DNA of 42,520 nt, from IMG/VR virus record IMGVR_UViG_3300045988_013082, positions 1-42,520 of that record; one strand, 5' to 3'. Of this stretch, positions 1 to 37,160 are shown one piece after another. The notes beneath the pieces were generated by a model, which saw only the letters and a list, made by a program, of their open reading frames with translations, searched no databases and had not been told where the DNA came from. Every line of letters starts with the position of its first letter. The first letter of the stretch is position 1. The position numbers were made by a program, and so were the translations under genes. The stretch is from a virus.

Positions 1-55
1 CCACCTTACTGATGGAATCGCTCACGCGGATGCCCTCAATGCTGGTGCCGATGAC
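1..55. repeat. Terminal overlap, copy 1 (identical to 42466..42520)
   Basis: Base-by-base comparison shows 55/55 identity with the last 55 nt of the window. This is typical of a circular molecule linearised by an assembler. Confidence 0.95.
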
Positions 56-15033: not shown

Positions 15034-15109
15034 CGTCTTCACCTCTCAAAATTGCGCTTTCGCGTTGCTGCACGCGTGCAAGCTAGCTTGCTGCGCTGCT
15101 GCTAGCGAA

Positions 15110-15138
15110 AGCATAACGTTAATTTTCGCAAAAGTCAA
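15110..15138 (-). promoter_or_regulatory. Candidate promoter of the packaging/structural operon
   Basis: Minus strand reads TTGACT, 17 nt, TATGCT. It lies immediately downstream of element B and about 75 nt upstream of the terS ATG. Confidence 0.5.
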
Positions 15139-15142
15139 ATTT

Positions 15143-15171
15143 TGTGGTACACTTTTGTACCACTTATTTTT
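15143..15171. promoter_or_regulatory. Palindrome-containing 29-nt element, copy B (upstream of terS promoter)
   Basis: tgtggtacacttttgtaccacttattttt contains the perfect inverted repeat GTGGTACA-cttt-TGTACCAC. Confidence 0.6.
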
Positions 15172-15179
15172 GATAGAGT

Positions 15180-15218
15180 AAAAAAGAGCACCGACCGCCG
15201 TTAATCGGTAGTCGGTGC
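15180..15218 (-). terminator. Rho-independent terminator of the RHH gene
   Basis: Minus strand GCACCGAC...GTCGGTGC stem followed by TCTTTTTT. The hairpin overlaps the last codons of the RHH ORF. Confidence 0.6.
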
Positions 15219-15392
15219 CTTGCTCATGCTCTCGCGGATTGCATCCAAAATATACGCCTGTACGCTCTTCCCGGCCCGCTGGGCTGCGTCCCGGATTGCC
15301 GCGCCCTCCTCGATAGTAGGGCGGATCATGATATTATCCCGGCTGGAGTTCCAGCGAGCAGAGGCCCGCTTGTGCGCGTCGCTCACTGCCAT
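15201..15392 (-). CDS. Ribbon-helix-helix (CopG/Arc-like) DNA-binding protein
   Basis: ATG at 15392 after AAGGAGG. The 63-aa product contains IMIRPTIEEGAAIRDAAQRAGKSVQAYILDAIRE, a typical RHH beta-strand plus two helices. It is divergent from the FtsK cassette. Confidence 0.65.
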   Translation of the reverse strand: MAVSDAHKRASARWNSSRDNIMIRPTIEEGAAIRDAAQRAGKSVQAYILDAIRESMSKAPTTD

Positions 15393-15432
15393 GTTGTCGC
15401 CTCCTTTGTGTGTAAGTATATCACGGATCGCG

Positions 15433-15452
15433 CATAACCGTAAACGTGTAAT
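15433..15452. promoter_or_regulatory. Degenerate second copy of the cassette operator
   Basis: cataaccgtaaacgtgtaat matches the 20-bp core of the 15511..15530 palindrome at 14/20 positions. It overlaps a possible RHH promoter (minus strand TTTACG, 18 nt, TATACT). Confidence 0.4.
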
Positions 15453-15503
15453 ATTGCACAAAATACCATGATTTATTTGTGCATATTTTTTCGCTCACAC
15501 CTG

Positions 15504-15532
15504 TTGACTTTATAACCGTTAACGGTTATAAT
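15504..15532 (+). promoter_or_regulatory. Near-consensus sigma-70 promoter overlapped by a 22-bp perfect palindrome
   Basis: TTGACT (15504-15509), 17-nt spacer, TATAAT (15527-15532). The palindrome TTATAACCGTTAACGGTTATAA (15510-15531) fills the spacer and part of the -10. Confidence 0.75.
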
Positions 15533-15594
15533 GAATACGTAAACAAGAGGTGATCCCCTCCCCTATCAGGGCTGGGCAAAATGGAGGTATTACA

Positions 15595-15936
15595 ATGGCT
15601 AAAATGTATTTTGTGGATACGAACGGCGGATATCTTACAGTTGCAGTTGCTGAGCTACCCGGAATAAACATAACAGATTTTCGAGCCTGCTATATGTGGC
15701 AGGATGGCCGCGAAGGAAACTACCCATGCAATAATCCGCGCTGGGATGATGCAGGAGTAGCAGAGCGCGAGGAAATCGCCACGGCATGGCTTAAGCAGCT
15801 TGCAGAGTGCAACGATTTCGAATCGCTCTATTCTGATTGCGATTGCTATAGCGGCTTCCGCGGAGTTTATACCGCGGGCGAATTCTGGCGCGACATCGCC
15901 ACTGGTGATGATATACTCGCCGAAATCGATTTTTGA
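15595..15936 (+). CDS. Hypothetical protein (cassette gene 1)
   Basis: ATG at 15595 lies 8 nt after GGAGG. The product is 113 aa. I recognise no family. Confidence 0.6.
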   Translation: MAKMYFVDTNGGYLTVAVAELPGINITDFRACYMWQDGREGNYPCNNPRWDDAGVAEREEIATAWLKQLAECNDFESLYSDCDCYSGFRGVYTAGEFWRDIATGDDILAEIDF

Positions 15937-16006
15937 TGATTCCGGGCTTCTGGGCGGTTGAGCCGATCAGCCGCACCACATAATCTTAAATCAGGAGGAA
16001 CAAACA

Positions 16007-16660
16007 ATGACAATCATTAAGAACGGCGAAGATTTCCGCATCATCGATCTTTTGAACCAGTACGACAATCTTTACTTTGAGGGCCTGAACGTTTCGGCCC
16101 ATCCGTACTGCAGCAGCCTTGTTGTTATCGACTTGTCGGACGCTATGAAGCCCGGCAAGAGCTGCACGCGCTGGCTTTTCTCGGCCAGCCCGTGGAAGAT
16201 GGACGCTGACCGCCTCTGCATGACGGAATATGTAGAAATGGCCGCGCCTGAGTGCGACACGCTGGCCGAGCTGGTGGCGTGGTTGAGAGCCAGTAAGCCT
16301 CTGCAAGAGGTGGACGGCCTGACTGTTGAAACAGAAGCACAGTCCAGCAGCCGGACATTCTCCCCGTTTGCTCCTGTAAAGCCCGTCAAACTCGGCGAGC
16401 GCCTGAACGCCTCGACGATTGCAAAGGCCATTCGTGCTGGGCAGATCGTCGCAGGGCGTACCGAGGGCCGCTATACTGACGACTATGCAGCCGATGCCGC
16501 CTATGATTTTTACCGGGGCGAAATTGACTTGCAGGCGTTTGCCCAAGACATCTATGAGCATCCCAGCGGCTGGCGCTTTTGGTGGCACGACGAGAGCCGG
16601 AAAGAAATTACGGCAGCTTGTCACACGTTCGATTATAAGAGACTCGCGGTAGCGGTTTGA
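16007..16660 (+). CDS. Hypothetical protein (cassette gene 2)
   Basis: 217-aa ORF with an AGGAGGAA RBS. I recognise no family. Confidence 0.6.
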   Translation: MTIIKNGEDFRIIDLLNQYDNLYFEGLNVSAHPYCSSLVVIDLSDAMKPGKSCTRWLFSASPWKMDADRLCMTEYVEMAAPECDTLAELVAWLRASKPLQEVDGLTVETEAQSSSRTFSPFAPVKPVKLGERLNASTIAKAIRAGQIVAGRTEGRYTDDYAADAAYDFYRGEIDLQAFAQDIYEHPSGWRFWWHDESRKEITAACHTFDYKRLAVAV

Positions 16661-16688
16661 CCGCCCCGCGACGAATGGAGGAATTCTC

Positions 16689-16832
16689 ATGGTAAAGAAC
16701 ATTCTTTGCAGCCTGCGCGATGATGTTCTATCCGGCAAAATCACGCTTCACGAGGCAGCCGAGGAATTGCACGAAAGCGGCTGGACAAACTTCATCGACG
16801 AGGACGCGGCCCGCCGCCTTCTGGGTCTTTAG
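16689..16832 (+). CDS. Small hypothetical protein (cassette gene 3, 47 aa)
   Basis: Manual translation gives MVKNILCSLRDDVLSGKITLHEAAEELHESGWTNFIDEDAARRLLGL. It has a GGAGGAA RBS and is below the ORF-track cutoff. Confidence 0.45.
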   Translation: MVKNILCSLRDDVLSGKITLHEAAEELHESGWTNFIDEDAARRLLGL

Positions 16833-16860
16833 GTGCCAACGAAAATTGGAGGGTTTAATA

Positions 16861-17142
16861 ATGGCTAACTTTTATATTGCAGTCTCTGTAAAACAGGACC
16901 GAAACGAAACCACTTTCACAGAGCGCAAAAACCCGGAATATAATCCCGGCTATTATGCTTTTGTTATCCGCTGTTCCGAAAACGACAACCTTCTGCACAG
17001 TCTGGACTGCATCGGCGGCATTATCCATGCGAACATTCTTCCGACAAAGAAACGCGCCGAAGAAGTCGCGCAGTATTGGAATGACTGCTATAAAGCGAAC
17101 GGAACATATTTCTTCGCCGAACCGAAAGAGGAAATAGCATGA
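16861..17142 (+). CDS. Hypothetical protein (cassette gene 4)
   Basis: ATG at 16861 after GGAGGG. The product is 93 aa. The ORF-track entry 16720..17142 starts too early. Confidence 0.55.
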   Translation: MANFYIAVSVKQDRNETTFTERKNPEYNPGYYAFVIRCSENDNLLHSLDCIGGIIHANILPTKKRAEEVAQYWNDCYKANGTYFFAEPKEEIA

Positions 17143-17870
17143 AAAAGATTACCAACATCGGCGGACGGGTTCCCGGCCTGTTCGCCGACATGCTCGTTCA
17201 ACCGCATGTGTTAATTGCCGGTGCTTCTGGCTCCGGTAAGTCCGTTCTTCTAAATGGGTTGATCTGCTCTATCCTGCGATACCATCCCAACGCCAAGCAG
17301 ATGATCCTGATCGATCCCAAGCGGACAGAGCTTAACGAGTATGCGGATATGCCGCACACCCTCCAGCACGCGACGGAGCCGGGGGATATCGTTTCGGCTT
17401 TGGAATACGCGATGCAGATCACAGAGAACCGTTACAAGGCCATGCAGTGCCGCAGAGAGCGGCTTTATAACGGGGCCGACGTGTATGTTATAATCGACGA
17501 ATTCGCCGACCTCATGACCACCAACAAGCGTCAAACCATGCCGACGGTGCAAAGGCTTTGCCAGATTGGGCGAGCTGCGAAAGTCCATATCATCTTGGCC
17601 ACTCAATGCCCATTGGCTAAGATCCTGCCAACTGAGATCAAAGTCAACTTTACAGCTATCTGCGGGCTGCATACCAGATCCCGACAGGATAGCCGCAACA
17701 TTATTGGCTGTCCGGGCTGTGAGAATCTACCGAGATTCGGTCGGTGCCTTTATCTCACGCCGGAAGGGTTCACGCGGAACCTTGTACCCTATACAAGCGA
17801 TGCTGATATCTTGGCCTATACCGATTTTTACCGCAAGCAAGGCCGCCCTTTCTGGAGGCGAGCAGTATAA
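17139..17870 (+). CDS. FtsK/SpoIIIE-family ATPase, motor domain only
   Basis: 243 aa with Walker A GASGSGKS and Walker B VYVIIDEFADL, plus ILATQ and an arginine-finger region. There are no TM or gamma domains. The ATGA start overlaps gene 4. Confidence 0.8.
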   Translation: MKKITNIGGRVPGLFADMLVQPHVLIAGASGSGKSVLLNGLICSILRYHPNAKQMILIDPKRTELNEYADMPHTLQHATEPGDIVSALEYAMQITENRYKAMQCRRERLYNGADVYVIIDEFADLMTTNKRQTMPTVQRLCQIGRAAKVHIILATQCPLAKILPTEIKVNFTAICGLHTRSRQDSRNIIGCPGCENLPRFGRCLYLTPEGFTRNLVPYTSDADILAYTDFYRKQGRPFWRRAV

Positions 17871-17873
17871 AGC

Positions 17874-17901
17874 AAATCCCCGCCCGTTTGGGTGGGGATT
17901 T
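17874..17901. terminator. Bidirectional terminator between convergent genes
   Basis: A 12-bp stem, AAATCCCCGCCC-gttt-GGGTGGGGATTT, has A-rich and T-rich flanks. It sits between the stops at 17870 (+) and 17904 (-). Confidence 0.7.
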
Positions 17902-17903
17902 TG

Positions 17904-18419
17904 TTATAGCTTTACGCCTTTTATATGCTTATCGTAGTATGTAGCGGCTACCGCCATAGCCGCCCACATGTCCGCGGAGAACCCGAAAAAGAATCCCGGC
18001 TGTTTCTTTGTGCCCTTGCCAAAGTTCGGCTGTGCGGGCGCGTATCGATCAACTAGGGCCTGACGGATATTGCTATCCTTTGCGTTGGGAGAGCCGCAGA
18101 TGTCGAGCTTTTCTTCCCGGCGGAAGATTTTTGCCATCGCCCGGAATTCTTGATTTAGGGCAAGCTGCCAGAAACGCCCGATCCAAACACAGGTATCAAA
18201 CACCTCTTGTCCTACTGGCATACCCATCCCGGCAATCATTTCGATTACAAAATCAAAATTCTCGCTTTCTGCGCCTTTTGCGATGATCTCCATGATCTCA
18301 TTGTTCTCGATCTTCCCAGCTTTTCGGATTTTGGTTATGTCGTTCTGGTCGTACTCTGCGATAACATAGCCACTTTTGATGTTTCCGGGGTCTATTGCGA
18401 GGATGACGCCTATCTCAAT
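17904..18419 (-). CDS. RuvC-like Holliday junction resolvase (RNase H fold) with a probable non-canonical start
   Basis: The ATG ORF is 17904..18293. The same frame stays open 126 nt further upstream and encodes IEIGVILAIDPGNIKSGYVI, the catalytic-Asp motif. No ATG, GTG or TTG occurs after the in-frame TAA, so an ATT (18419) or ATA start is implied. Confidence 0.55.
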   Translation of the reverse strand: MEIGVILAIDPGNIKSGYVIAEYDQNDITKIRKAGKIENNEIMEIIAKGAESENFDFVIEMIAGMGMPVGQEVFDTCVWIGRFWQLALNQEFRAMAKIFRREEKLDICGSPNAKDSNIRQALVDRYAPAQPNFGKGTKKQPGFFFGFSADMWAAMAVAATYYDKHIKGVKL

Positions 18420-22921: not shown

Positions 22922-23164
22922 TCACAGTGTCGACGCCGTATGCACCGGATGCGGCTCAAAAAGCAGCCGCGTCAATCGCTCGTTTTCCTCCCGCAGCTCG
23001 GCAATCTCCTTCTGGTCACGCTCGATCTGGTCAATGCAATGCTTGAATAGCACACCGATGCAGGTCGATTCATCCTTTTGCAACTCTACCGGGCACGTTT
23101 TGCACGGATAATCGTTGCTGCAATACCGCAGCGCCTTGACCAGTTCTTCCGGTTTCAAATTCAT
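22922..23164 (-). CDS. Hypothetical Cys-containing coiled-coil protein
   Basis: ATG 23164 overlaps the upstream stop (ATGA). The product is 80 aa, with CSNDYPCKTCP followed by a charged helix. Confidence 0.5.
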   Translation of the reverse strand: MNLKPEELVKALRYCSNDYPCKTCPVELQKDESTCIGVLFKHCIDQIERDQKEIAELREENERLTRLLFEPHPVHTASTL

Positions 23165-23853
23165 TTCAGAACCCCCGCTTTCCGTCCGAAATTCTCCGCC
23201 CCCCATTGTTCCGCCATCGCTGCCGCGATTCCTTCAAATGTCTTTGCCCTGTTTTTTGCTCTGTCTGTCGTGAACATTCCTTTATGCTGGTTGCCGTGTT
23301 TATGGCTATATGACCCAGACGGGCACCATGTTGCGGTCGGCTCTACTATTTGCGTCGGTATCAGCGGTGGGAGATTCTTTAACCATAGGCACGTTCTTTT
23401 TGTATATGGATGCCCGAATTGATACGGCTGAATTGTCTGCGTATATTCCGGCATTGCAAATACGCGGCTCGGAATCGGATTTTCTACCGCTATTCTCGGA
23501 ATATCAGCAAGCCAAAAGCGCATGAAAAAATCTCTCGCTTGAATCCCTAGTATTACGCGGTCGGCTTGTAATTGATGCCCTTTCCAAAGATGCCTCGCAC
23601 CCGCATTGCTAAGATACGTACACGGCGGATGCGCAATCAGCAAATCCCATTGTGTAATCCCGTGCATTTTCCCGTCCATTGTCCGAAATTCCGAACACTT
23701 TCCGTCTATCAGTTTCAGCGCATCCCCCATGACGTGCCATTCAGGATGGCCGCCGGACGGCTCCTGAATATCGCATGAGTACGCTTCGTGCCCTCGTGCC
23801 CGGAATGCTTTGCACACCTCCTGCGATTCCTCACAAGCTACCAGCACTTTCAT
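23161..23853 (-). CDS. C5-cytosine DNA methyltransferase-like protein lacking a recognisable motif I
   Basis: 230 aa. HPPCTYLSNAG resembles motif IV (PC) and AVENP resembles motif VI (ENV). The N-terminus reads VLVACEESQEV instead of FxGxG. Confidence 0.5.
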   Translation of the reverse strand: MKVLVACEESQEVCKAFRARGHEAYSCDIQEPSGGHPEWHVMGDALKLIDGKCSEFRTMDGKMHGITQWDLLIAHPPCTYLSNAGARHLWKGHQLQADRVILGIQARDFFMRFWLADIPRIAVENPIPSRVFAMPEYTQTIQPYQFGHPYTKRTCLWLKNLPPLIPTQIVEPTATWCPSGSYSHKHGNQHKGMFTTDRAKNRAKTFEGIAAAMAEQWGAENFGRKAGVLK

Positions 23854-30007: not shown

Positions 30008-30287
30008 TCTTTAATCAGCCTCCTTTCAATGTGTCGTAGATTTGTCAATAGACAAATCTCTGTTTCTCATCATAGATGAGAAAATTTTTTGTTTTTTTAT
30101 AGAGGGATGCGTCCACACTCTTGACATTCTTTAGAAATTAGGCTAAAATTGTTTTGTCAGACAAATAGCGTTTTTTGAAGCCTGTCAAGAGCGGGACGGT
30201 ATTTCTTTACCCTCTGATAGATATTATAATAGCCAATTAGCTAATTGTCAATAGCCAATCTTCTATTTTTAGAGAGTTTTTGATGCT
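30008..30287. promoter_or_regulatory. Lysis-lysogeny switch region with several palindromic operators
   Basis: GATTTGTCAATAGACAAATC (30039-30058), CTCATCATAGATGAG (30066-30080), TTTGTCAGACAAA (30153-30165) and CAATTAGCTAATTG (30234-30247). The plus-strand promoter is TTGACA (30121-30126), 17 nt, TAAAAT (30144-30149). Confidence 0.7.
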
Positions 30288-30656
30288 ATGAATAATAAGA
30301 ACAATGAGCAAAACAAAGTAATCGTTAACAACATCCGAACACTTGCTGCGTCCAGAAGGACAAATATTGCCACAATAGAACGCGAACTCGGAATTGGCAA
30401 CGGAACTATTGGGAAATGGGCAAAGGCCGCAAAAAGTCCGCCCTACGAAACCCTATATAAAATTGCGACGCATTTCGGTGTGACCGTCGCCGAGTTGACC
30501 GGAGAGGCGGACGAAAATGGTATAAAAAAAGAAACCATCACTTTCGGTGATGGTTTCACGGCCAAGCAGGCCAAAGGCATTGAACTTATAAAGTCTTTAT
30601 CTGAGGACGAATTAGATCGTGCTATGGCTGCGTTGGAAGCGTTCTTCAAAAAATAA
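30288..30656 (+). CDS. CI-like XRE-family repressor
   Basis: 122 aa with an N-terminal XRE HTH (IATIERELGIGNGTIGKW) and a C-terminal helical domain. It is divergent from the Cro-like gene. Confidence 0.7.
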   Translation: MNNKNNEQNKVIVNNIRTLAASRRTNIATIERELGIGNGTIGKWAKAAKSPPYETLYKIATHFGVTVAELTGEADENGIKKETITFGDGFTAKQAKGIELIKSLSEDELDRAMAALEAFFKK

Positions 30657-31189
30657 TGAAGAAGAAAGATGTTATTGCACTCTCCATTATTGCAGCTGTA
30701 TTTGTATTCGGCGGGGTTGGTGGTTTTGCATGGCAAATAGTAAAATTTAGACTTGACCCTCCTGATTTTGGAGGATTCAATATTAAACTCTTTTTACTAT
30801 TTGTTGTGATGATGGTATCTGGCGGAAAGCTAATTAAAGCCGTGCCAGACATTGGCCCATCAGAAATCAATAATATGACTGGTGTGCAGTTCGAAAACTA
30901 TGTGGCCGATCTGCTTCGCAAAAAAGGTCATTCCGTGCAGCTAACTCCAAAAACAGGCGACTACGGTGTTGACCTTATCATGGACGGACATGTAGCCATT
31001 CAGTGCAAGCGCTATGGAAAGGATGTCGGCGTAAAGGCCATTCAAGAGGTCTATTCCGGGATGCAGCATTACGGATGTAGCTCAGCCATTGTGGCCACAA
31101 ACTCAGTTTTTACCGCAAATGCAAAGACGTTAGCCAACGAGCTTGGTGTCATTCTCTGGGATGGCTCCACAATTTGCAGAGACATTTGA
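30656..31189 (+). CDS. Membrane-anchored Mrr-type (Mrr_cat) restriction endonuclease-like protein
   Basis: The start overlaps the CI stop (TAATGA). Two N-terminal hydrophobic helices are followed by FENYVADLLRKKGH...GDYGVDLIM...AIQCKRYG...V..IQEV...AIVATNSVFTANA, the Mrr catalytic core pattern. Confidence 0.7.
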   Translation: MKKKDVIALSIIAAVFVFGGVGGFAWQIVKFRLDPPDFGGFNIKLFLLFVVMMVSGGKLIKAVPDIGPSEINNMTGVQFENYVADLLRKKGHSVQLTPKTGDYGVDLIMDGHVAIQCKRYGKDVGVKAIQEVYSGMQHYGCSSAIVATNSVFTANAKTLANELGVILWDGSTICRDI

Positions 31190-31285
31190 GCGTGTAAACT
31201 GCTCGATAAACTCGTCCAGTTCACTTTCTGATAGCATGAGTAAGAGACTGATAGCTTTTTGTTCACGTTCTTCTCGACTTTTCAT
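31130..31285 (-). CDS. Small convergent ORF (51 aa) overlapping the 3' end of the Mrr-like gene
   Basis: ATG 31285 after GAGAGGAAAGGAA, giving MKSREEREQKAISLLLMLSESELDEFIEQFTRS.... It has its own promoter, and its last 60 nt are antisense to the nuclease gene. Confidence 0.4.
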   Translation of the reverse strand: MKSREEREQKAISLLLMLSESELDEFIEQFTRSNVSANCGAIPENDTKLVG

Positions 31286-31329
31286 TTCAATTCCTTTCCT
31301 CTCTCCGGTTCGTGTGTTTTCTGCTCTCA

Positions 31330-31358
31330 ATATTAAAACTTTTGTTCTATATAGTCAA
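31330..31358 (-). promoter_or_regulatory. Sigma-70-type promoter for the convergent small ORF / antisense transcript
   Basis: Minus strand reads TTGACT (31353-31358), 17 nt, TAATAT (31330-31335). Confidence 0.6.
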
Positions 31359-31376
31359 CCTGCACTTTGCACAATA

Positions 31377-31405
31377 TTGACGTAGTAAAATTCTATGCGC
31401 ATAAT
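31377..31405 (+). promoter_or_regulatory. Sigma-70-type promoter of the zinc-ribbon membrane protein gene
   Basis: TTGACG (31377-31382), 17 nt, CATAAT (31400-31405). It lies back-to-back with the minus-strand promoter. Confidence 0.55.
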
Positions 31406-31467
31406 TTTCAAGTGTCCGTACTATTGGACATGGTTTGTGATAGAAAAGAAAGAAGAGTGAAAATGAT

Positions 31468-32172
31468 ATGCGTAGGCCAGTGTATGAAGTAACCTGTCCG
31501 ATGTGCGGAGAGGTATTCGACGAGAGGTTGCGAAAATGTCCAAACTGCCGCGCGAAGAACCGGAAAGACGTGTGCCGCACTTGCGGAAACGAAATAAGCA
31601 AACAGGCCAGAAAATGCCCCGCTTGTGGTGCGCGTCACATGAAGAAGCTTTCAGACGGCGGAATTATCGCTATCCTCGTGACGCTGCTTCTTGTGGTGAT
31701 TATTCAAGAGCGCGTTATGGATATGCCAAATAGCGAGGCCGCAGTAGAAGACGCATCGAGTTTTGGAAGTTCCGCGGTTTCGGATGCACCGCCTGAGGCA
31801 CAAGCGGAAACGGACGATAAAAATGAAGTGGTTTCAAGAGAAAACTATATTGCGAAATGTGATGCCGTTTTGTATAACGATGTAGCGCGGAACCCGGATA
31901 GCTATGACGGTGAAAAGGTAATGTTTTCAGGCACCGTTATTCAGGTTTCAGAGGATGCGCTTGACTTATTCAGCACCAATTCAGTTGACTTCCGCGTTGA
32001 AACCTCTGATGGCATCTGGTATGTATCCTATAATCGGCCAGAGGGAGAGAGCCGAATCCTTGAGGGTGACTATATCACCTGCTATGGGGAGTGTGACGGC
32101 GTTACAACATATATCTCTGTGCTTGGCGGAAATGTCACCGTCCCGAAGCTCATTATGAAGTACCACGATTAA
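31468..32172 (+). CDS. Double zinc-ribbon / single-TM / extracytoplasmic-domain protein (moron)
   Basis: 234 aa with CPMCG...CPNC...CRTCG...CPACG, a hydrophobic helix (GGIIAILVTLLLVVII), an Ala/Ser/Glu-rich linker and a ~120-aa beta-rich C-terminal domain. Confidence 0.65.
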   Translation: MRRPVYEVTCPMCGEVFDERLRKCPNCRAKNRKDVCRTCGNEISKQARKCPACGARHMKKLSDGGIIAILVTLLLVVIIQERVMDMPNSEAAVEDASSFGSSAVSDAPPEAQAETDDKNEVVSRENYIAKCDAVLYNDVARNPDSYDGEKVMFSGTVIQVSEDALDLFSTNSVDFRVETSDGIWYVSYNRPEGESRILEGDYITCYGECDGVTTYISVLGGNVTVPKLIMKYHD

Positions 32173-32399
32173 CGTCTCAGGTGGGCATAACGCCTTGACA
32201 GGTAAAGCCGTAAACCATAGTCCTATGGGTGAGATCACCCCGCCGTCGAACCTCCCTGGCGGCGGGGCTTCGGCTTACCGCAAGCGAGTGGGAGCTTGCT
32301 TGCAAGTACAGAGTACGCTTTTCAAAGTTAACATTTCAAGTTCAAATCTTAACATTTTTTAGGAATAATCATGTATATTTCAGAAAGAAGTGACGTTTC

Positions 32400-33017
32400 T
32401 TGCACGATTCGACAATAAACGAGTATTGCAAAGCGGCCAAGGATCAAGCGTATCCAAAAATCACGAATCAGGAAATATGTGATAAAACGAACATCTCAGA
32501 TTCAACTTTGAACAACTTCTTCAGGGGCGCGACAAAAAATCCGTCCGTCTACCTCGTCGGCGATATTTGCCGTGCGCTCGACGTGTCATTAGATGAATAT
32601 TTCATGTTAAATTCTGAACATCTGCCATCTCAAGATCTGATTGATAAGATACACCAGCTGGAAGAAAAAAGCCATGAGTTGGAATCCGAGAATCATGCCT
32701 TGCAGCTTCAGCTTGCCGAGCTGTCCGGCTCTCTTGAAATGGCAAACGCAGAGATCAAGCACCAAAAAGAAAAGGCAGACTTTCTCCGTGCGCAGCTCAA
32801 AACGCGCCGCCCTGTGATCTATACCCTGATGTGCTCCTGCGCCGTCATGGCCTTCACCTTGCTGATCTACCTCGTTCTGGACTTCCGCGTCTCAGATGTA
32901 GGTTTTATCATAAATGGGAAACTGCAACCTGCGGCATGGATCGTGTTATGCACGATCGTTGCCGCAGTTGCCATCATCGCATGGTCAATCATCCATAACA
33001 CGAAACAGAGAAGGTGA
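32400..33017 (+). CDS. Membrane-tethered XRE-family HTH protein (HTH, coiled coil, two TM helices)
   Basis: A TTG start is forced by an in-frame TGA at 32391. The product has an HTH (ITNQEICDKTNISDSTLNNFFRG), a heptad-like region (LEEKSHELESENHALQLQLAEL...) and two hydrophobic helices. The stop lies 4 nt before the integrase ATG. Confidence 0.6.
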   Translation: MHDSTINEYCKAAKDQAYPKITNQEICDKTNISDSTLNNFFRGATKNPSVYLVGDICRALDVSLDEYFMLNSEHLPSQDLIDKIHQLEEKSHELESENHALQLQLAELSGSLEMANAEIKHQKEKADFLRAQLKTRRPVIYTLMCSCAVMAFTLLIYLVLDFRVSDVGFIINGKLQPAAWIVLCTIVAAVAIIAWSIIHNTKQRR

Positions 33018-33021
33018 AAAA

Positions 33022-34089
33022 ATGAAAGTCCCAGAGCCGCGCAAACTCCCCAGCGGCACATGGTTCATCCAAATGCGTCTGAACGGCATTAGCGTCCCCG
33101 TGTCCGCCTCAACAAAGAAAGAGTGTATCCGTCAAGCCCAGCTCATAAAAGCCGAACACAGAGCGGGGAAGAGGCGCTTCGTATTGACTGACATAACCGT
33201 AAAAGACGTGTTGGATGAATACATTGAAAAGAAAAGGGGAGGTCTTTCACCGTCCACCATTCAGGGGTATGAAAAAATAAGGGATCAATATTTTCGGTGC
33301 CTTATGGATGTAGCGATTAAATCCATTGATGCAGAAAAAGTCAACGACGCTATCTGCGCAGAACAGAAACGAACAAGCAAACGCGGAAGGCCGCTGTCTG
33401 CAAAAACAATATGCGAGGCATGGCATCTGATTTCAACCGCGCTGTCCAAAAAGGGGGTTAGCTTTTCCGGCGAAATTGATCTGCCAGAAATCAAGAAAAA
33501 GCCTGTTCAAATCCTATCATTTGAGCAGATATATCCAGCGATCAAAGGATCATCGATAGAATTGGAATGCCTGCTTGCTGCGCGGCTGAGTCTTTCGATG
33601 TCCGAAATTCGCGGCCTGACAAAATCCAAATCAATTCATGACGGAAAACTCACTGTCGTTGAAACCGTTGTGGATATTGGTGGAAAAGCAGTTCGGAAAG
33701 AGGGCGCAAAAGAAGTTGATCGTGTGCGAACTTTGGCGATCCCAGATTTCATACAAACGCTGATTGATGAAGTCGATGGAGATATTATCTGCGATAAGTC
33801 TTCGCAAACGATCAACAAACGTTACCAACGGTTGTTAGAAAAAGCCGGTTTGCCAAAGAGCAGTTTTCATAAGCTGCGTCACACATTCGCGTCAACCGGA
33901 GCTATGCTTCAAATTCAGCCAGAGATACTGCAAGAAGAGGGTGGTTGGCACACCGACCACACTATGAAGACCGTTTATACACATACATTCCCGTCCGCTC
34001 GCATTGCTGCCGACAAACTTCTCGACGAGCATTTTTCAAAAATAATTTTGCAAAATGCTAATGAAAATGCTAACGTAAACCAAGAGTGA
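33022..34089 (+). CDS. int: Tyrosine integrase
   Basis: ATG 33022 after GAAGGTGA. The product is 355 aa. The C-terminal HKLRHTFAS...GGWHTDHTMKTVYTHT carries the R-H-R-Y-type catalytic pattern. It lies next to attP. Confidence 0.9.
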   Translation: MKVPEPRKLPSGTWFIQMRLNGISVPVSASTKKECIRQAQLIKAEHRAGKRRFVLTDITVKDVLDEYIEKKRGGLSPSTIQGYEKIRDQYFRCLMDVAIKSIDAEKVNDAICAEQKRTSKRGRPLSAKTICEAWHLISTALSKKGVSFSGEIDLPEIKKKPVQILSFEQIYPAIKGSSIELECLLAARLSLSMSEIRGLTKSKSIHDGKLTVVETVVDIGGKAVRKEGAKEVDRVRTLAIPDFIQTLIDEVDGDIICDKSSQTINKRYQRLLEKAGLPKSSFHKLRHTFASTGAMLQIQPEILQEEGGWHTDHTMKTVYTHTFPSARIAADKLLDEHFSKIILQNANENANVNQE

Positions 34090-34120
34090 TTGATTTTCAA
34101 CGTGCTTTGGTAATTTACAA

Positions 34121-34148
34121 AGGGGTTCGATTCCCCTCAGCTCCACCA
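34121..34148 (+). other. attP core: 3' end of a tRNA-Ala- or tmRNA-like gene (T-arm, acceptor strand, ACCA)
   Basis: AGGGG-TTCGATT-CCCCT followed by CAGCTCC-A-CCA. No complementary 5' acceptor strand (GGAGCTG) lies upstream, so only the 3' part of the gene is present. Confidence 0.7.
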
Positions 34149-34156
34149 AGAAAAAG

Positions 34157-34188
34157 AAACCAGCAATCGATTGAGATTGCTGGTTTTT
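34157..34188 (+). terminator. Rho-independent terminator after the tRNA-like fragment and integrase
   Basis: AAACCAGCAAT-cgattgag-ATTGCTGGTTT followed by TTCTTTT. Confidence 0.7.
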
Positions 34189-34308
34189 CTTTTATTCTCA
34201 ACGGTTTTCTTCTTTTTATACTGTCAATTTCTTTTACAACCAGTAATAGATTAGAGCAAGTTCATTAGCGATTTTGACAATAAAATGCTAACGGAAAATG
34301 CTAATGAA

Positions 34309-34785
34309 TCAGTCCCGCTTCACAATCCCATGATAATACCCGGCCATCTTCGCCTCCGGGCCTCCGGCATCCTTATCCATGAGGAAGGCTTTGGCAAGGT
34401 CGGCGTAGAACTCCGGCCGGTCAAGGCCGTACTTGGCAGCCACACCGTAATAGTCCGAGTACATCATGTTCATTGCCGCCCACCAGATGCAGGACTTCGC
34501 ATGAACACCTGTGATATTGGCCACAGCATCCGTCTGCTCCATCGTCCAGTGTGCGCCGGTCGTACCGTCCTCGTTTTCCATGTGCGATACCCACTTTTCA
34601 GCATCCTCGCGGGTGAATTCCATCATTTTCGTGGACTCACGAAAATGGTCATCGTCCAGTTTGTGCAGCGCACAAATGGCGTCCGCGTACACCGTGACTT
34701 CTTCCGCGCGCCCAAGCGTCACCGGGCGCTCCATGATCTCATGCAGCTGCCGTTTCAGTTCTTCGATATAATGCTCTTTTCCCAT
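34309..34785 (-). CDS. Hypothetical protein (cargo operon gene 3)
   Basis: 158-aa ORF with a conserved-looking core, MENEDGTTGAHWTMEQTDAV...WWAAMNMMYSDYYGV. I cannot name a family. Confidence 0.6.
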   Translation of the reverse strand: MGKEHYIEELKRQLHEIMERPVTLGRAEEVTVYADAICALHKLDDDHFRESTKMMEFTREDAEKWVSHMENEDGTTGAHWTMEQTDAVANITGVHAKSCIWWAAMNMMYSDYYGVAAKYGLDRPEFYADLAKAFLMDKDAGGPEAKMAGYYHGIVKRD

Positions 34786-34786
34786 G

Positions 34787-35125
34787 TCAAGCCTCCTGAA
34801 TGTATTTGTAAAGCCGGTCGACGTCGTTCACATCGAACCGCAGCTCCCCAATGACCGGAATGGTCAGTGGGATCTTCTTTCCGTCCACCTGCGTTCTCGC
34901 GGCGTTGTAGAGCCGGTCAAGGTCGATATTGCCCTCTGCATCCATAATGCCCATCATCTGCACTGCCGGGTGATCCTTCAGCGCAAGGATGCGGCTTTTG
35001 CCGCCATCCATGATAAGCGCCAGCGCGATTCCGGCTCCAATGCCCTTGCCGGTTGGCAGGTGCGGGATGATCTCATTGTCGGCATACTGCGCCACGCCGC
35101 GCATGGCCTGATCTATTGTCACCAT
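34787..35125 (-). CDS. Hypothetical protein with one Gly/Ala-rich hydrophobic segment (cargo operon gene 2)
   Basis: 112-aa ORF whose stop lies 1 nt from the next ATG. It contains GKGIGAGIALALIMDGG. Confidence 0.55.
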   Translation of the reverse strand: MVTIDQAMRGVAQYADNEIIPHLPTGKGIGAGIALALIMDGGKSRILALKDHPAVQMMGIMDAEGNIDLDRLYNAARTQVDGKKIPLTIPVIGELRFDVNDVDRLYKYIQEA

Positions 35126-35175
35126 ATTGGTTTACCTCCATTTTAAGGTGGGGCGGCTATTGCCGCCCCTTTTGC

Positions 35176-35754
35176 TTAGTTCTTGCAGCAGCCGCACTTC
35201 GGGAGCGGATTGTAGAGCGTCTGCGCAGTGGTCGCGGTTCCGGTGGTGACGTCTGCAACCTGCTTCGGATAAAAGGTGGCGTTGGCATAAGTCACGATGG
35301 CGTTGTCGCCGCAGCAGCGCCGCTCGGCCTCCATCTCGATCTCGCGGTGCAGCTCGGACTTGACCGAAGCGATGTCCTGGCGGGCAAGGACGAAGCTGTC
35401 CTCGGTGCGCTGGTTATGCACGGCCTGATCGCAGATCGACTTACGGATGTCCTTGAGCTGGCCGTCGATGTAAGCGTACATCTCCAGCGACTTCTGATCG
35501 TTGTAGGTGTTGGCCTTGAGCATCGCGATCTCGCTGTCCTTCGCGGCCAGCTTCTGCTCCCGGTCGAGCTCGTAGCGCGTGACCGGCATGTTCTCGCTGC
35601 ACGTGCCCGCCGCTACAGCCGCAGCAGCCGGATTTACACCCCAGCCGTTCCAGCCGCCGAGTAGGTTGCCCAGCAGTCCAAGACCGACGCCAGCCGTGCC
35701 GATGATGCCAGTGGTCAGGGCCGCATTGGCCTTGCCGTTGCTTGCGTATTCCAT
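35176..35754 (-). CDS. Hypothetical membrane/coiled-coil protein with a Cys-rich C-terminus (cargo operon gene 1)
   Basis: ATG 35754 after GGAGGGAA. It has a glycine-zipper-like segment (GIIGTAGVGLGLLGNLLGGWNGWG), a coiled-coil middle, RRCCGDN and a terminal KCGCCKN. Confidence 0.6.
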   Translation of the reverse strand: MEYASNGKANAALTTGIIGTAGVGLGLLGNLLGGWNGWGVNPAAAAVAAGTCSENMPVTRYELDREQKLAAKDSEIAMLKANTYNDQKSLEMYAYIDGQLKDIRKSICDQAVHNQRTEDSFVLARQDIASVKSELHREIEMEAERRCCGDNAIVTYANATFYPKQVADVTTGTATTAQTLYNPLPKCGCCKN

Positions 35755-35933
35755 AGAGTTTCCCTCCAAAAAATGTAGTAAGCTGGCCAGCTCCTACGAT
35801 CAGTATGAGGGATTTTGAAATTCCGGGGGACGCACGAAGGTAGCATGAGAGACGCATTTATGTAGCATTTCTGACGCATCGGCGCATAAGTTCGATGCTA
35901 CATATTAAATTCTCGGAAATTTGCGAAAATCTA

Positions 35934-35961
35934 TTGCAAATTCTCGCAGTCGCGCTATAAT
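35934..35961 (+). promoter_or_regulatory. Sigma-70-type promoter of the Dcd-like/TM gene
   Basis: TTGCAA (35934-35939), 16-nt spacer, TATAAT (35956-35961). GGAGG at 35979-35983 lies 7 nt before the ATG. Confidence 0.65.
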
Positions 35962-35990
35962 TTAGGCAAAGAAAGAACGGAGGTAAGGAT

Positions 35991-36803
35991 ATGATTTTGG
36001 TTGACCACGATCTTTCAAAACTGATTGCTGATTCAGGAATCATTCAAGAAGACACGTTCTCTCCTGACTGCATTACAAACATCGGGTACGATCTTCGCAC
36101 AAAGGCTTTTTATGATGACGATGGGGAACACACGTCAAAGACCATCGCTCCGGGTGAATCCGTAATGGTTTCAACAGAAGAAATTATAAATATGCCCGTC
36201 GATATGGCGGCTATCGTGCATGACCGTAATAGCCGCATCCGTCAAGGATTGTCTGTCTCTGCTCCAATTTATCAACCAGGGCATAAGACGCGGGTGTTTT
36301 TCCGGCTTACTAATATTTCCGAGAATGAGATCCGCCTAAATGTAGAAGACAGCTATGCCATGATCGTTTTTGAAAAACTATCTGGCTCAGCAGACAAGCC
36401 TTACAGTGGGAAGTTTAAGGATGAAATCGGCGGTTACACAGGTTTAAGCGGATACAAAAAGGCTTATGAAAAACAAATCAATCAGCTTGACAAAAAGGCA
36501 GGCGATGTAAAAGAAATCGAAAAATCTATTTACGCAAACGTTCTGGCGATTCTTGCTGTCTTTGTTGCAATCTTCAGCTTGATTTCTACCAACGTAAAGC
36601 TTCTTGAAGATGAATCCACTTTGCGAAGTTTCATCGGCTATAACCTCATAACCGTTGGTGGAATCAGTTTCCTCCTGACATTGCTTCGCACCACAATTTT
36701 GAATGACCTTTCCAGAAAGAAACCAGTCAAAGGATTCTTTGTTTGGTTACCTACAATCGTCGTGTTTATTGCGGCACTTCTCGTTTTTCTGCTCGTAAAA
36801 TAG
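35991..36803 (+). CDS. dCTP deaminase/dUTPase-fold domain fused to a coiled coil and C-terminal transmembrane helices
   Basis: Residues 1-~150 align by eye along E. coli Dcd (ITNIGYDLR; IAPGESVMVSTEEIINMP; DRNSRIRQGLSV; IYQPGHKTRVFFRLTN; MIVFEKLSG..DKPY.GK). A charged helix and 2-3 hydrophobic helices follow (VLAILAVFVAIFSLI, LITVGGISFLLTLL, VWLPTIVVFIAALLVFLLV). Confidence 0.75.
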   Translation: MILVDHDLSKLIADSGIIQEDTFSPDCITNIGYDLRTKAFYDDDGEHTSKTIAPGESVMVSTEEIINMPVDMAAIVHDRNSRIRQGLSVSAPIYQPGHKTRVFFRLTNISENEIRLNVEDSYAMIVFEKLSGSADKPYSGKFKDEIGGYTGLSGYKKAYEKQINQLDKKAGDVKEIEKSIYANVLAILAVFVAIFSLISTNVKLLEDESTLRSFIGYNLITVGGISFLLTLLRTTILNDLSRKKPVKGFFVWLPTIVVFIAALLVFLLVK

Positions 36804-36808
36804 GAAAA

Positions 36809-36842
36809 GCCCCCGACAGGATCACTCCTGCCGGGGGCTTTT
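36809..36842. terminator. Bidirectional rho-independent terminator
   Basis: AAAA-GCCCCCGACAGG-atcact-CCTGCCGGGGGC-TTTT lies between the convergent stops at 36803 (+) and 36868 (-). Confidence 0.8.
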
Positions 36843-36867
36843 GTACCGTCACAATATCTTGTATCTG

Positions 36868-37134: not shown

Positions 37135-37160
37135 TCCGGGTGGCGCGGCACACAGGGGCG

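What the first reader, a model, noticed from the sequence alone, without database searches (positions are those of the whole stretch)
15180..17901. Opposite-strand five-gene cassette ending in a minimal FtsK/SpoIIIE ATPase, controlled by a consensus promoter buried in a 22-bp perfect palindrome with a divergent RHH gene
**Seen in the sequence**
- Five plus-strand genes (113, 217, 47, 93 and 243 aa) interrupt an otherwise minus-strand genome between the packaging and early modules.
- The last gene is a motor-only FtsK/SpoIIIE-type P-loop ATPase (GASGSGKS, VIIDEFADL) with no TM or gamma domain.
- I do not recognise a family for the other four genes.
- The promoter TTGACT-17-TATAAT is almost entirely covered by TTATAACCGTTAACGGTTATAA.
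- A 14/20 degenerate copy of that palindrome lies 78 bp away, over the likely promoter of a divergent, separately terminated RHH gene.
- The cassette ends at a bidirectional terminator.

**Established knowledge:** FtsK-like pumps translocate dsDNA in chromosome segregation and conjugative transfer, and related P-loop ATPases occur in several defence systems. They are not part of the canonical siphovirus gene set.

**Inference:** this is a tightly repressed accessory module, probably repressed by the RHH protein. Its function is unknown. Candidates are DNA-transfer, exclusion, anti-defence or partition-like roles.
Basis: partly seen in the sequence, partly recalled or inferred. Interest (0 to 1): 0.7.

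Follow-up and report, generated by a model that had tools for sequence, protein, structure and literature searches.

The report
Repressor-gated phage operon, FtsK-like motor
A virus of gut Clostridia carries a separately switched five-gene block ending in a stripped-down DNA-pumping ATPase; the layout is real and common in related viruses, but phage FtsK-like genes were already catalogued and their job is still unknown.

Summary
The window is a complete circular 42.5-kb temperate phage genome. At 15.2-17.9 kb it has an insulated plus-strand operon of five genes (113, 217, 47, 93 and 243 aa). A near-consensus sigma-A promoter drives it, and its spacer is filled by the only long perfect palindrome in the genome. 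A 63-aa ribbon-helix-helix (RHH)-like gene lies divergent to it.

The last gene is clearly FtsK/SpoIIIE-type, not HerA, VirB4 or terminase. It keeps only the RecA-like beta domain: no membrane anchor, no alpha domain, no gamma domain.

Relatives add three results.
- The ~240-aa ATPase is a very large family in gut Clostridia phages.
- In 53 of 80 relatives it lies within about 3 kb of a detectable terS homologue, antisense to the main strand. The upstream genes are unrelated, interchangeable cargo.
- Three alleles of the small regulator co-vary with three operator sequences at the same positions, which argues strongly that it represses the operon.

Function remains inferred. My best reading is a repressor-gated accessory or "establishment" operon, patchy and horizontally exchanged, with cargo from the gene pool of plasmid and phage counter-defence proteins. 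Prophage defence and a DNA-metabolism helper role are live rivals; conjugation and partition are unsupported. Phage FtsK-like genes are already catalogued (PHROG 1358), so interest is moderate.

The parts
15178..15218 (-). Intrinsic terminator of the RHH-like gene
   Evidence: GC-rich hairpin, dG -22.6 kcal/mol, followed by a U-run on the minus strand.
15201..15392 (-). 63-aa RHH-like repressor gene
   Evidence: ATG preceded by AAGGAGG. The 63-aa call is reproduced on public contigs. Pfam hits are weak: NikA-like 9e-5 and TacA1 2e-3, both below cut-off; phrog_13890 1.8e-6. The six best matches of a PDB profile search are all RHH proteins but weak: two AtaR/DUF1778 sequences 0.08 and 0.15, Arc 0.29, ParD 0.5, pArc 0.6, NikA 1. 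dN/dS 0.10.
15415..15444 (-). Promoter-like site for the RHH-like gene (TTTACG-18-TATACT with an upstream TG)
   Evidence: Consensus scan gives 9 of 12. The position and the hexamers are kept in relatives L010, L014 and L047.
15432..15453 (.). Operator O2, a degenerate copy of the palindrome, overlapping the -35 of the RHH gene promoter
   Evidence: 15 of 22 matches to O1; left half 12 of 13; 78 bp from O1. The equivalent site changes sequence together with the regulator allele in L006 and L012.
15504..15532 (+). Operon promoter TTGACT-17-TATAAT
   Evidence: 11 of 12 match to consensus. The same architecture is conserved at the head of g5 cassettes in several phage groups.
15510..15531 (.). 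Operator O1, the 22-bp perfect palindrome TTATAACCGTTAACGGTTATAA, filling the promoter spacer
   Evidence: Unique in the window; the core 18-mer has 0.01 expected matches; none of 22 bp or more in shuffles. The exact core occurs only in relatives with the same RHH allele; the 78-79% allele keeps TAACCGTTAACG.
15539..15549 (+). Conserved initial transcribed motif GTAAACAAGAG
   Evidence: Lies 6 nt after the -10. Conserved across cassettes with different operators, and in 102 IMG/VR stretches, most of them without g5.
15595..15936 (+). g1, 113 aa, acidic (pI 4.05), no known family
   Evidence: No Pfam, PHROG, NCBIfam or PADLOC hit. Present, absent or partly deleted among close relatives. dN/dS 0.21.
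16007..16660 (+). g2, 217 aa, confident fold without a PDB match, member of a large family
   Evidence: AlphaFold pLDDT 94. No PDB match. One BFVD match, E=3e-8. 608 representative clusters. One fusion with the LPD25 domain. A distant relative lies in a plasmid-like element near ArdA and ParAB. It occurs without g5 in L093.
16689..16832 (+). g3, 47 aa, unknown
   Evidence: ORF with a ribosome-binding site, called on public contigs. Present in only a few relatives. Coding status is the least secure of the five.
16861..17142 (+). g4, 93 aa, unknown, start of g5 overlaps its stop
   Evidence: 34 homologues, no Pfam hit. pLDDT 84.5, no PDB match. Present in only some relatives. dN/dS 0.12.
17139..17870 (+). 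g5, 243-aa soluble FtsK/SpoIIIE beta-domain-only P-loop ATPase
   Evidence: PF01580 6e-33. phrog_1358 2e-52. FtsK PRK10263 8e-31. It aligns to residues 160-425 of the E. coli FtsK motor construct 2IUS, E=4e-31. Walker A, Walker B and the GRAA arginine are at least 90% conserved in 189 family members. pI 9.3, no transmembrane segment.
17871..17905 (.). Two-way terminator shared with the convergent resolvase-like gene
   Evidence: Hairpin dG -23.5 on the plus strand with UUUUGUUAU, and -19.4 on the minus strand with a weaker U-run.

Best explanation
**What is shown**
- The block is a self-contained transcription unit in a temperate headful-packaging phage. A strong host sigma-A promoter drives it.
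- The promoter spacer is an operator for a small RHH-like repressor encoded divergently. That repressor also sits on its own promoter.
- The operon carries interchangeable small acidic cytoplasmic proteins and one constant gene.
- The constant gene is a soluble FtsK-type ATPase reduced to the RecA-like motor core.

**What is inferred**
- With no repressor in the cell, as on entry into a naive host, the promoter fires at once. It is then shut off as the repressor accumulates.
- In a lysogen, the resident repressor keeps the prophage copy silent. It also silences any incoming copy of the same operator type.
- This is the logic of the P22 immI (Mnt/Arc-ant) region and of plasmid leading-region genes.
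- The operon is therefore most likely an accessory "establishment" or conflict module. The cargo would be counter-defence-type effectors. g5 would form a ring-shaped dsDNA translocase that works on DNA in the cytoplasm rather than across a membrane.
- Tight repression is expected because an unanchored DNA pump should be harmful if made freely.

**Confidence by part**
- Regulatory anatomy: about 0.8.
- Accessory and mobile status: about 0.75.
- Timing and role: about 0.35.
For: **Insulated unit**
- It has its own promoter and terminators on both sides.

**Link between repressor and operator**
- Allele A (window; recognition strand DNIMIRPT) goes with TAACCGTTAACG.
- Allele B (L006; 38% identical; KRVPLDMQ) goes with TGTGTACGTATA.
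- Allele C (L012; 67 aa; YQTVKVRR) goes with ACGTTACAACGT.
- Each operator occurs in two or three copies at the same places, while the -35, the -10 and the leader stay fixed.

**Constant ATPase, variable cargo**
- g5 is present in 17 of 17 relatives with TerL at least 84% identical. These carry differing subsets of g1-g4 or other genes.
- The partner families are unrelated to each other by profile comparison.
- L093 has the regulator and g2 but no g5.

**Accessory and exchanged**
- g5 lies near TerL in only 4 of 38 relatives with TerL 59-76% identical.
- Identities are incongruent: L150 has TerL 76% and g5 38%; L022 has TerL 32% and g5 59%.

**Cargo gene pool**
- A partner gene in L015 carries LPD25.
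- One g2 homologue is fused to LPD25.
- A distant g2 homologue sits in a plasmid-like element with ArdA, ParAB and MazEF.
- LPD25 belongs to the polyvalent proteins of conjugative elements, which are proposed to act in inter-genome conflict (PMC5512222).

**Motor**
- g5 is FtsK-type with its catalytic motifs conserved.

**Promoter design**
- The same design, consensus hexamers with a palindrome in the spacer, is used at the phage's main switch promoter.
- The same promoter and leader type heads small-gene operons in other phages.
Against: - There are no expression data. Whether the repressor is made in lysogens is inferred, not shown.
- The RHH assignment rests on sub-threshold hits.
- g1-g4 match no known anti-defence family.
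- In most other lineages the cassette lies beside a small serine recombinase.
- In Bacillus cereus-group phages the FtsK gene lies between the lysis genes and the integrase. Both positions would equally suit a role in lysogeny.
- Retention in 17 of 17 close relatives and dN/dS of about 0.24 would also fit a housekeeping DNA function.
Confidence: 0.45

Rival explanations
1. Prophage-expressed defence or superinfection-exclusion moron. The operon is expressed at a low, self-limited level from the prophage. The FtsK-like ATPase, alone or with cargo proteins, acts on incoming foreign DNA and protects the lysogen.
For: - It has the classic moron layout: own promoter and terminator, antisense to phage genes, patchy and exchanged.
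- It is on the same strand as the integrase block.
- PHROG 1358 is filed under "moron".
- The ATPase domain resembles that of the defence components SspH (4e-24) and mad8 (1e-20).
- Related FtsK modules sit next to an integrase or recombinase.
Against: - A dedicated repressor sitting on a consensus promoter argues for silence rather than constitutive expression.
- No partner gene of the Ssp or MADS systems is present, and no other PADLOC hit is found.
- Diversification of the repressor-operator pair is easier to explain if expression matters to the incoming phage.
- FtsK-like genes also occur in lytic phages (PMC13299392).
Confidence: 0.2
2. Helper for phage DNA metabolism. g5 is a motor that processes replicated phage DNA, for example by untangling or resolving concatemers, migrating branches, or clearing proteins. 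It would act at the switch from replication to headful packaging, together with neighbouring functions (TerS, the junction resolvase, the small serine recombinase).
For: - A terS homologue lies within about 3 kb in 53 of 80 loci.
- In the window g5 is convergent with a Holliday-junction-resolvase-like gene.
- g5 is retained in all close relatives and is under purifying selection.
- It is closest to true DNA translocases.
- Similar suggestions exist in the literature for other phage FtsK-like genes (PMC13299392). FtsK gamma domains are fused to TerS in Bacillus phages (PMC8190038).
Against: - It is transcribed from its own repressible host-type promoter on the opposite strand, not with the replication or late genes.
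- It is absent near TerL in 34 of 38 moderately related phages.
- It is co-transcribed with unrelated, interchangeable small genes.
Confidence: 0.2
3. Remnant or module for DNA transfer or partition. Either the ATPase is a coupling protein or TraB-like pump with an RHH relaxosome or centromere-binding protein, or the pair is a ParA/ParG-like partition system.
For: - The best Pfam hit for the small protein is NikA-like, and weak NCBIfam hits go to MobA, MbpA and TraJ.
- FtsK-like ATPases drive transfer in Gram-positive conjugation (established knowledge).
Against: - No membrane segment.
- No relaxase and no other transfer gene in the window.
- TraB, VirD4 and TraG models match only the P-loop.
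- The nearest plasmid-borne relatives are at most 40% identical and are true FtsK or TraB.
- g5 is not a ParA-type ATPase.
- The palindromes sit exactly on promoters.
- The phage has an integrase.
Confidence: 0.05

Closest known systems
Phage FtsK/SpoIIIE-like proteins (PHROG 1358 and 3551), e.g. phIS3501 gp051 of Bacillus thuringiensis and the cluster J mycobacteriophage "FtsK-like DNA translocase"
   Same: - An FtsK-type P-loop domain encoded by tailed phages as an extra module of unknown role.
- About 34-36% identity over most of g5.
   Different: - g5 is only 243 aa, the motor core alone; phIS3501 gp051 is 393 aa.
- g5 sits beside terS rather than between the lysis genes and the integrase.
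- g5 is the terminal gene of a repressor-gated operon with variable cargo.
Cellular FtsK/SpoIIIE DNA translocases
   Same: - The RecA-like beta domain with Walker A, Walker B and the GRAA arginine.
- Best PDB matches are the E. coli and P. aeruginosa FtsK motors, E about 1e-30.
   Different: - No N-terminal membrane domain or linker, no alpha domain, and no gamma winged-helix domain.
- The Arg of the FtsK "TQRP" motif is Cys in 145 of 189 family members.
Phage P22 immI region (mnt / arc-ant), from my own knowledge
   Same: - Small RHH repressors bind palindromic operators that overlap divergent promoters.
- The island lies among late genes and is independent of the main immunity repressor.
- It gives burst-then-shut-off logic.
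- Repressor and operator specificities diversify among relatives.
   Different: - The cargo is not an antirepressor; no Ant, KilAC or Bro domain is found.
- There is one regulator, not two.
- Binding has not been tested.
Streptomyces plasmid kil-kor pairs, e.g. pIJ101 korA-tra, from my own knowledge
   Same: An FtsK-like gene is held in check by a divergently transcribed repressor whose operator overlaps both promoters. The rationale is that the pump is harmful if unregulated.
   Different: - The repressor there is GntR-type.
- Tra/TraB is membrane-associated, recognises a transfer locus, and moves DNA between cells.
- None of these features is seen here.
FtsK-like ATPase components of defence systems (SspH of Ssp; mad8 of MADS)
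   Same: The ATPase domains resemble each other: PADLOC SspH 4e-24 and mad8 1e-20. mad8 is of similar size.
   Different: None of the other components that define those systems is present in the cassette.

Membership tests
FtsK/SpoIIIE family (Pfam PF01580) | Significant match to the family profile above the curated cut-off, and better than to sister P-loop families | tested here: met
   PF01580 scores 114.6 bits against a cut-off of 24. The next best are nSTAND1 35.9, HerA DUF87 27.2 (P-loop only) and Pox_A32 26.9. phrog_1358 2e-52 against the terminase phrog_2666 1e-13. FtsK PRK10263 8e-31 against VirB4 1e-7.
FtsK/SpoIIIE family | Catalytic motifs: Walker A GxxGxGKS/T, Walker B hhhhDE, arginine finger | tested here: met
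   GSGKS, IDE-ADLM and QiGRAA are at least 90% conserved in 189 family members. Equating the GRAA Arg with the FtsK arginine finger is from memory.
Cellular FtsK/SpoIIIE translocase (full architecture) | N-terminal membrane anchor | tested here: not met
   The highest 19-residue Kyte-Doolittle mean is 1.31, and the protein starts 13 residues before the aligned motor.
Cellular FtsK/SpoIIIE translocase (full architecture) | Alpha domain and gamma (KOPS-reading winged-helix) domain | tested here: not met
   g5 aligns only to residues 160-425 of the 512-residue 2IUS construct. No FtsK_gamma hit in Pfam.
FtsK/SpoIIIE family | Hexameric ring that translocates dsDNA using ATP | not testable with these tools
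   This needs biochemistry or a multimer model.
Arc/MetJ (ribbon-helix-helix) repressors | Profile match to an RHH family above threshold | tested here: inconclusive
   NikA-like scores 22.9 bits (cut-off 27) and TacA1 18.7 (cut-off 21). The six best PDB profile hits are all RHH proteins, but with E of 0.08 to 1.
Arc/MetJ (ribbon-helix-helix) repressors | Binds palindromic or tandem operators through the N-terminal strand; specificity set by strand residues | tested here: met
   The support is comparative only. Three alleles with different predicted strand residues go with three operator sequences at identical promoter positions. Physical binding is untested.
P22 immI-type secondary immunity region | The controlled gene is an antirepressor | tested here: not met
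   g1-g5 have no Ant, KilAC or Bro-N domain.
Ssp or MADS defence systems | Presence of the other system components next to the FtsK-like ATPase | tested here: not met
   Only g5 hits the PADLOC models (SspH C-terminus, mad8). g1-g4 and the RHH-like protein have no significant PADLOC hit.
Conjugative coupling protein or TraB-like dsDNA transfer | Membrane anchoring, relaxase or transfer locus, full-length match to T4CP or TraB models | tested here: not met
   No transmembrane segment. TraB NF041214 4.8e-3, TrwB 0.066, TraG 0.066. No relaxase was found among the neighbours scanned. The closest plasmid genes are at most 40% identical.
Type Ib partition (ParA with an RHH centromere-binding protein) | Deviant Walker A ParA/MinD-type ATPase | tested here: not met
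   The Walker A motif is GASGSGKS, and the best families are all FtsK-type. No CbiA, ParA or MipZ hit is found.
Type VII secretion EssC/EccC | Multi-ATPase membrane protein with partner membrane components | tested here: not met
   There are partial matches to single EccC/EssC ATPase domains only, 1e-15 to 1e-19 and far below cut-offs. g5 is a single domain with no transmembrane segment.
Domains associated with polyvalent proteins (LPD class), for g2 | Occurs fused to other LPD domains, or solo in phages and conjugative elements | tested here: inconclusive
   One of ten long homologues scanned has the g2 domain fused to LPD25. A solo homologue lies in a plasmid-like element near ArdA. g2 itself matches no Pfam LPD model.

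The most novel reading that the evidence does not exclude
The cassette may be a "first-in" pre-early operon.
- Assume the pac site lies in or near terS and headful packaging runs from terS towards terL, as in P22 and SPP1 (my own knowledge).
- Then the last-packaged DNA, which is the first injected, carries this cassette.
- Its antisense orientation would make it co-directional with DNA entry. It would enter kilobases ahead of the main early promoter.
- The strong host promoter would then deliver counter-defence cargo and a soluble FtsK-type motor before anything else.
- The motor might reel in or sweep the incoming genome, comparably to the first-step-transfer genes of T5 or RNA-polymerase-driven entry in T7.
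- This would explain two features that a simple hot-spot does not: the conserved antisense orientation and the nearness to terS.
Probability: 0.12. Interest if true: 0.8.

Novelty: new variant of a known kind. Interest (0 to 1): 0.4.

Why it matters
- Phage FtsK-like genes have been noted for years without an assigned role (PMC3335513; PMC13299392).
- This minimal form is very common in human-gut Clostridia phages. The search found 3736 homologues at E of 1e-10 or better, and one 90%-identity cluster alone holds 4360 sequences.
- The window offers a compact, genetically tractable version: one repressor, two operators, one promoter, a motor-only ATPase, and natural variants that lack individual cargo genes.
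- The three repressor-operator pairs are ready-made orthogonal switches.
- The cargo includes a large uncharacterised family, g2, with a confident fold absent from the PDB and links to the counter-defence gene pool of plasmids.
- If the motor acts on incoming or replicating DNA, it would add a new class of phage-encoded DNA machine.

Tried and rejected
- **Rfam.** Nothing at gathering score in the whole window, and nothing credible at 15100-16100.
- **PADLOC.** Only ATPase-domain resemblance; no defence system is present.
- **Fold searches.** g4 has no PDB match. g2 has no PDB match and only one unnamed viral match, A0A2I7QWQ4.
- **Remote homology among partner genes.** Profile comparison found the families unrelated, except f146 with f224 and a short stretch shared by g1 and f92.
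- **g1 against the first gene behind the same promoter type in L238.** No similarity.
- **Plasmid collection.** Only true FtsK or TraB at 40% identity or less.
- **"Listeria phage" short records with 34% hits.** These are unverified wastewater contigs and were not used.
- **Cross-control by the main repressor.** There is no copy of the switch palindrome near the cassette.
- **Physical genome ends next to the cassette.** Two contigs end in the GC-rich spacer of L063-type loci. They end at different bases and one carries a sequencing adapter, so this is not evidence for cos or pac ends.
- **terS next to g5 in every group.** 14 loci (L032-L045, L048) have no detectable TerS homologue. A candidate 228-aa gene has no PHROG or Pfam hit.
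- **Spirochaete hits in the genome collection.** At 35-42% identity, none of my other phage queries matched those loci. They are probably cellular FtsK and were set aside.
- **Literature on MADS mad8.** Nothing useful found.

Full report
**1. Context**

The window ends repeat 55 bp exactly, so it is a circular assembly of a complete genome of 42,465 bp.

The gene content marks a temperate tailed phage that packages by the headful:
- a large terminase (phrog_38, 5e-65), a P22 gp3-type small terminase (PF16677, 1.4e-13), an SPP1-type portal and a Mu F-like protein;
- a tyrosine integrase at 32914-34089 inside a plus-strand block at 30288-37173, an Erf-like annealing protein and a DnaC-like loader.

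Related sequences come from human-gut viromes and from Oscillospiraceae, Acutalibacteraceae, Lachnospiraceae and other Clostridia genome bins.

**2. The observation**

- The six genes have the stated sizes and strong ribosome-binding sites. The g4 stop overlaps the g5 start. Gene calls on independent public contigs agree.
- Comparison with diverged relatives gives dN/dS of 0.10-0.24 for the regulator, g1, g2, g4 and g5. Only the 47-aa g3 remains unproven as a gene.
- The promoter TTGACT-17-TATAAT (15504-15532) is the best match to consensus in the region.
- The 22-bp palindrome (15510-15531) fills the promoter spacer. It is the longest perfect palindrome in the genome, and none this long arose in shuffles.
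- A degenerate copy 78 bp away overlaps the -35 of a promoter-like site for the small divergent gene.
- Hairpin terminators close the unit on both sides.
- One correction: the genome also has a second plus-strand block, the lysogeny module.

**3. The ATPase**

g5 is an FtsK/SpoIIIE-family protein by every library.
- Pfam PF01580: 6e-33.
- PHROG 1358: 2e-52.
- NCBIfam FtsK: 8e-31.

HerA, VirB4, coupling-protein and terminase models match far more weakly, and mostly only at the P-loop.

Against solved structures g5 aligns to residues 160-425 of the E. coli FtsK motor construct (E=4e-31). That stretch is the RecA-like beta domain, without the alpha domain before it or the gamma domain after it. 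g5 has no hydrophobic segment and is basic, pI 9.3.

In 189 family members the Walker A motif, the Walker B motif and the GRAA arginine are at least 90% conserved. The arginine of the FtsK TQRP motif is cysteine in 145 of them.

**4. The family and its neighbourhood**

The word-indexed search returned 3736 proteins at E of 1e-10 or better. The best 120 are all 224-294 aa, and one cluster holds 4360 sequences. IMG/VR gave 99 confirmed loci at 46-100% identity.

In those loci g5 is on the strand opposite to the flanking terminase genes. In my rough ORF maps it is the last conserved gene of its same-strand block.
- In 38 of 66 loci with enough flank, a convergent terS homologue lies within 2.5 kb downstream.
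- In 15 of 56, terS lies upstream, as in the window.
- 14 loci have no detectable TerS homologue.

In many lineages, including seven Clostridia genome bins, the cassette lies between terS and terL. A 256-aa serine recombinase (Resolvase plus Recombinase domains) is divergent from it.

I also sampled relatives through TerL rather than through g5.
- All 17 relatives with TerL at least 84% identical and adequate flank have g5.
- Only 4 of 38 relatives with TerL 59-76% identical have g5.
- g5 identity does not follow TerL identity: 76% with 38% in L150, against 32% with 59% in L022.

The ATPase is therefore accessory and horizontally exchanged, although it is stable within a genus-level group.

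**5. The other four genes**

None of g1-g4 matches Pfam, PHROGs, NCBIfam or PADLOC. All four are acidic and cytoplasmic.

Among close relatives they occur in changing combinations: g2 with g5; g4 with g5; g1 with g5; g2, g4 and g5; or other genes in their place. One natural variant has most of g1 deleted. L093 keeps the regulator and g2 but has no g5. In distant loci the partners are other families, unrelated to each other by profile comparison. The four genes are cargo, not obligate subunits.

g2 folds confidently (pLDDT 94) into a fold with no PDB counterpart and one unnamed viral match. A full profile search finds 608 representative clusters. One homologue fuses the g2 domain to LPD25, and LPD25 also occurs in a partner gene of L015. 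A distant g2 homologue sits in a plasmid-like element beside a Toprim protein, ParA/ParB, MazEF and the antirestriction protein ArdA. LPD25 was defined in the polyvalent proteins of conjugative elements, which are proposed to act in inter-genome conflict (PMC5512222).

g4 (pLDDT 84.5) has no structural match.

**6. The switch**

The small protein scores below threshold for RHH families. Even so, the six best matches of a PDB profile search are all RHH proteins: two AtaR/DUF1778 antitoxin sequences, Arc, ParD, pArc and NikA.

The stronger evidence is comparative. Close relatives keep the -35, the -10, the leader and the regulator's own promoter, but they carry different regulators.
- Allele A (predicted recognition strand DNIMIRPT) goes with TAACCGTTAACG sites.
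- Allele B (38% identical; KRVPLDMQ) goes with TGTGTACGTATA sites.
- Allele C (67 aa; shares only the N-terminal arm; YQTVKVRR) goes with ACGTTACAACGT sites.

In every case there is one site in the operon promoter spacer, one over the -35 of the regulator's promoter, and often a third site between them.

This co-variation is what a repressor-operator pair predicts. It resembles the heteroimmune diversification of secondary immunity regions.

The design is not unique to this operon. The phage's main switch promoter (30251-30223, minus strand) is a perfect TTGACA-17-TATAAT with a 14-bp palindrome in its spacer. There is no copy of that palindrome near the cassette, so the two circuits look independent.

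**7. Mechanism**

Shown:
- an insulated unit driven by a host-type promoter;
- a dedicated, probably autoregulated repressor;
- a constant, soluble FtsK-core ATPase with intact catalytic motifs;
- variable cargo;
- accessory and mobile status.

Inferred:
- The promoter fires when the genome is free of repressor, and is then shut down.
- Resident prophages of the same type silence incoming copies.
- The products therefore act early, during establishment. The cargo would be counter-defence-type effectors, and g5 a cytoplasmic ring translocase whose uncontrolled synthesis would be harmful.

I rate this at 0.45 overall. Two rivals remain at about 0.2 each: a lysogen-expressed defence module and a DNA-processing helper linked to packaging. 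A transfer or partition role fails its defining features (0.05).

**8. Comparison with what is known**

- Phage FtsK-like genes are catalogued: PHROG 1358 and 3551, and 361 phage records match g5 at under 60% identity.
- They have been discussed as an extra module of unknown role in Bacillus cereus-group temperate phages (PMC3335513; gene map) and in a lytic podovirus (PMC13299392).
- An FtsK gamma domain fused to TerS is known in other Bacillus phages (PMC8190038).
- New here are the motor-only architecture, its great abundance in gut Clostridia phages, the nearness to terS with antisense orientation, the interchangeable cargo, and the allele-specific RHH switch.
- I therefore file it as a new variant of a known kind, of moderate interest.

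**9. Caveats**

- ORF maps of relatives were made with a simple longest-ORF rule and contain some antisense artefacts.
- The sets of loci overlap in contigs and are not phylogenetically independent.
- Timing and function are inferences, and no binding or expression was measured.

Noticed in passing
window 1-55 and 42466-42520: An exact 55-bp terminal overlap. The window is a circularly closed assembly of a complete genome of about 42,465 bp.
   Followed up: yes
window 30121-30251: The main genetic switch. A perfect TTGACA-17-TATAAT promoter on the minus strand (30251-30223) has the 14-bp perfect palindrome CAATTAGCTAATTG (30234-30247) in its spacer. It lies next to a plus-strand TTGACA-17-TAAAAT site (30121-30149). 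The design is the same as the cassette promoter, but the operator is different.
   Followed up: partly
window 15539-15549; loci L228-L307: The motif GTAAACAAGAG, 6 nt after the -10, is conserved behind consensus promoters with many different spacer palindromes in 102 IMG/VR stretches. Of the 80 loci examined, 12 have g5 downstream, 44 do not and 24 are too short to tell. A large class uses the palindrome ACGCTAATATTAGCGT. There is no Rfam match.
   Followed up: partly
L063 3883-5084 (also L057, L052, L097-L104): A 256-aa serine recombinase with Resolvase and Recombinase domains and no zinc ribbon is divergent from the cassette. Both promoters are perfect TTGACA-17-TATAAT and carry ATGCGAAT in the spacer. 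A GC-rich hairpin region separates them, and contigs L068 and L069 end in it.
   Followed up: partly
window 15078-15091 and 15144-15163: A 14-bp perfect palindrome GCAAGCTAGCTTGC and a separate hairpin lie between the RHH gene terminator and the terS start. Next to them is a TTGACT-17-TATGCT promoter-like site for terS (15138-15110). This is a possible late-promoter or pac-related region.
   Followed up: no
L002 4727-4795; L222 (public contig): Natural variants of the same phage have most of g1 deleted while the regulator and g2-g5 are intact. g1 is therefore dispensable in nature.
   Followed up: partly
g5 residue 156 (window 17604-17606): The arginine of the FtsK TQRP motif is cysteine here and in 145 of 189 family members. 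It is arginine in 27 and threonine in 16.
   Followed up: partly
L216 1-12684: A 29%-identical g2 homologue lies in a plasmid-like element of about 38.8 kb. The element carries a Toprim protein, ParA/ParB, MazEF, a Gp49/HTH pair, a resolvase, SRAP and the ArdA antirestriction protein.
   Followed up: no
window 23161-23853; 35991-36803; L221 14134-14412: Other conflict-related genes are present. A DNA methyltransferase (phrog_757) lies in the early region. A dCTP-deaminase-like gene lies on the plus strand in the lysogeny block. In a public contig carrying an identical g5 (L221), an early-region gene has a weak Lar restriction-alleviation hit.
   Followed up: no
L150 1723-2403: A relative with TerL 76% identical carries a very different FtsK-like gene, only 38% identical to g5, in the same convergent position next to terS. 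The position is kept while the sequence is replaced or strongly diverged.
   Followed up: no
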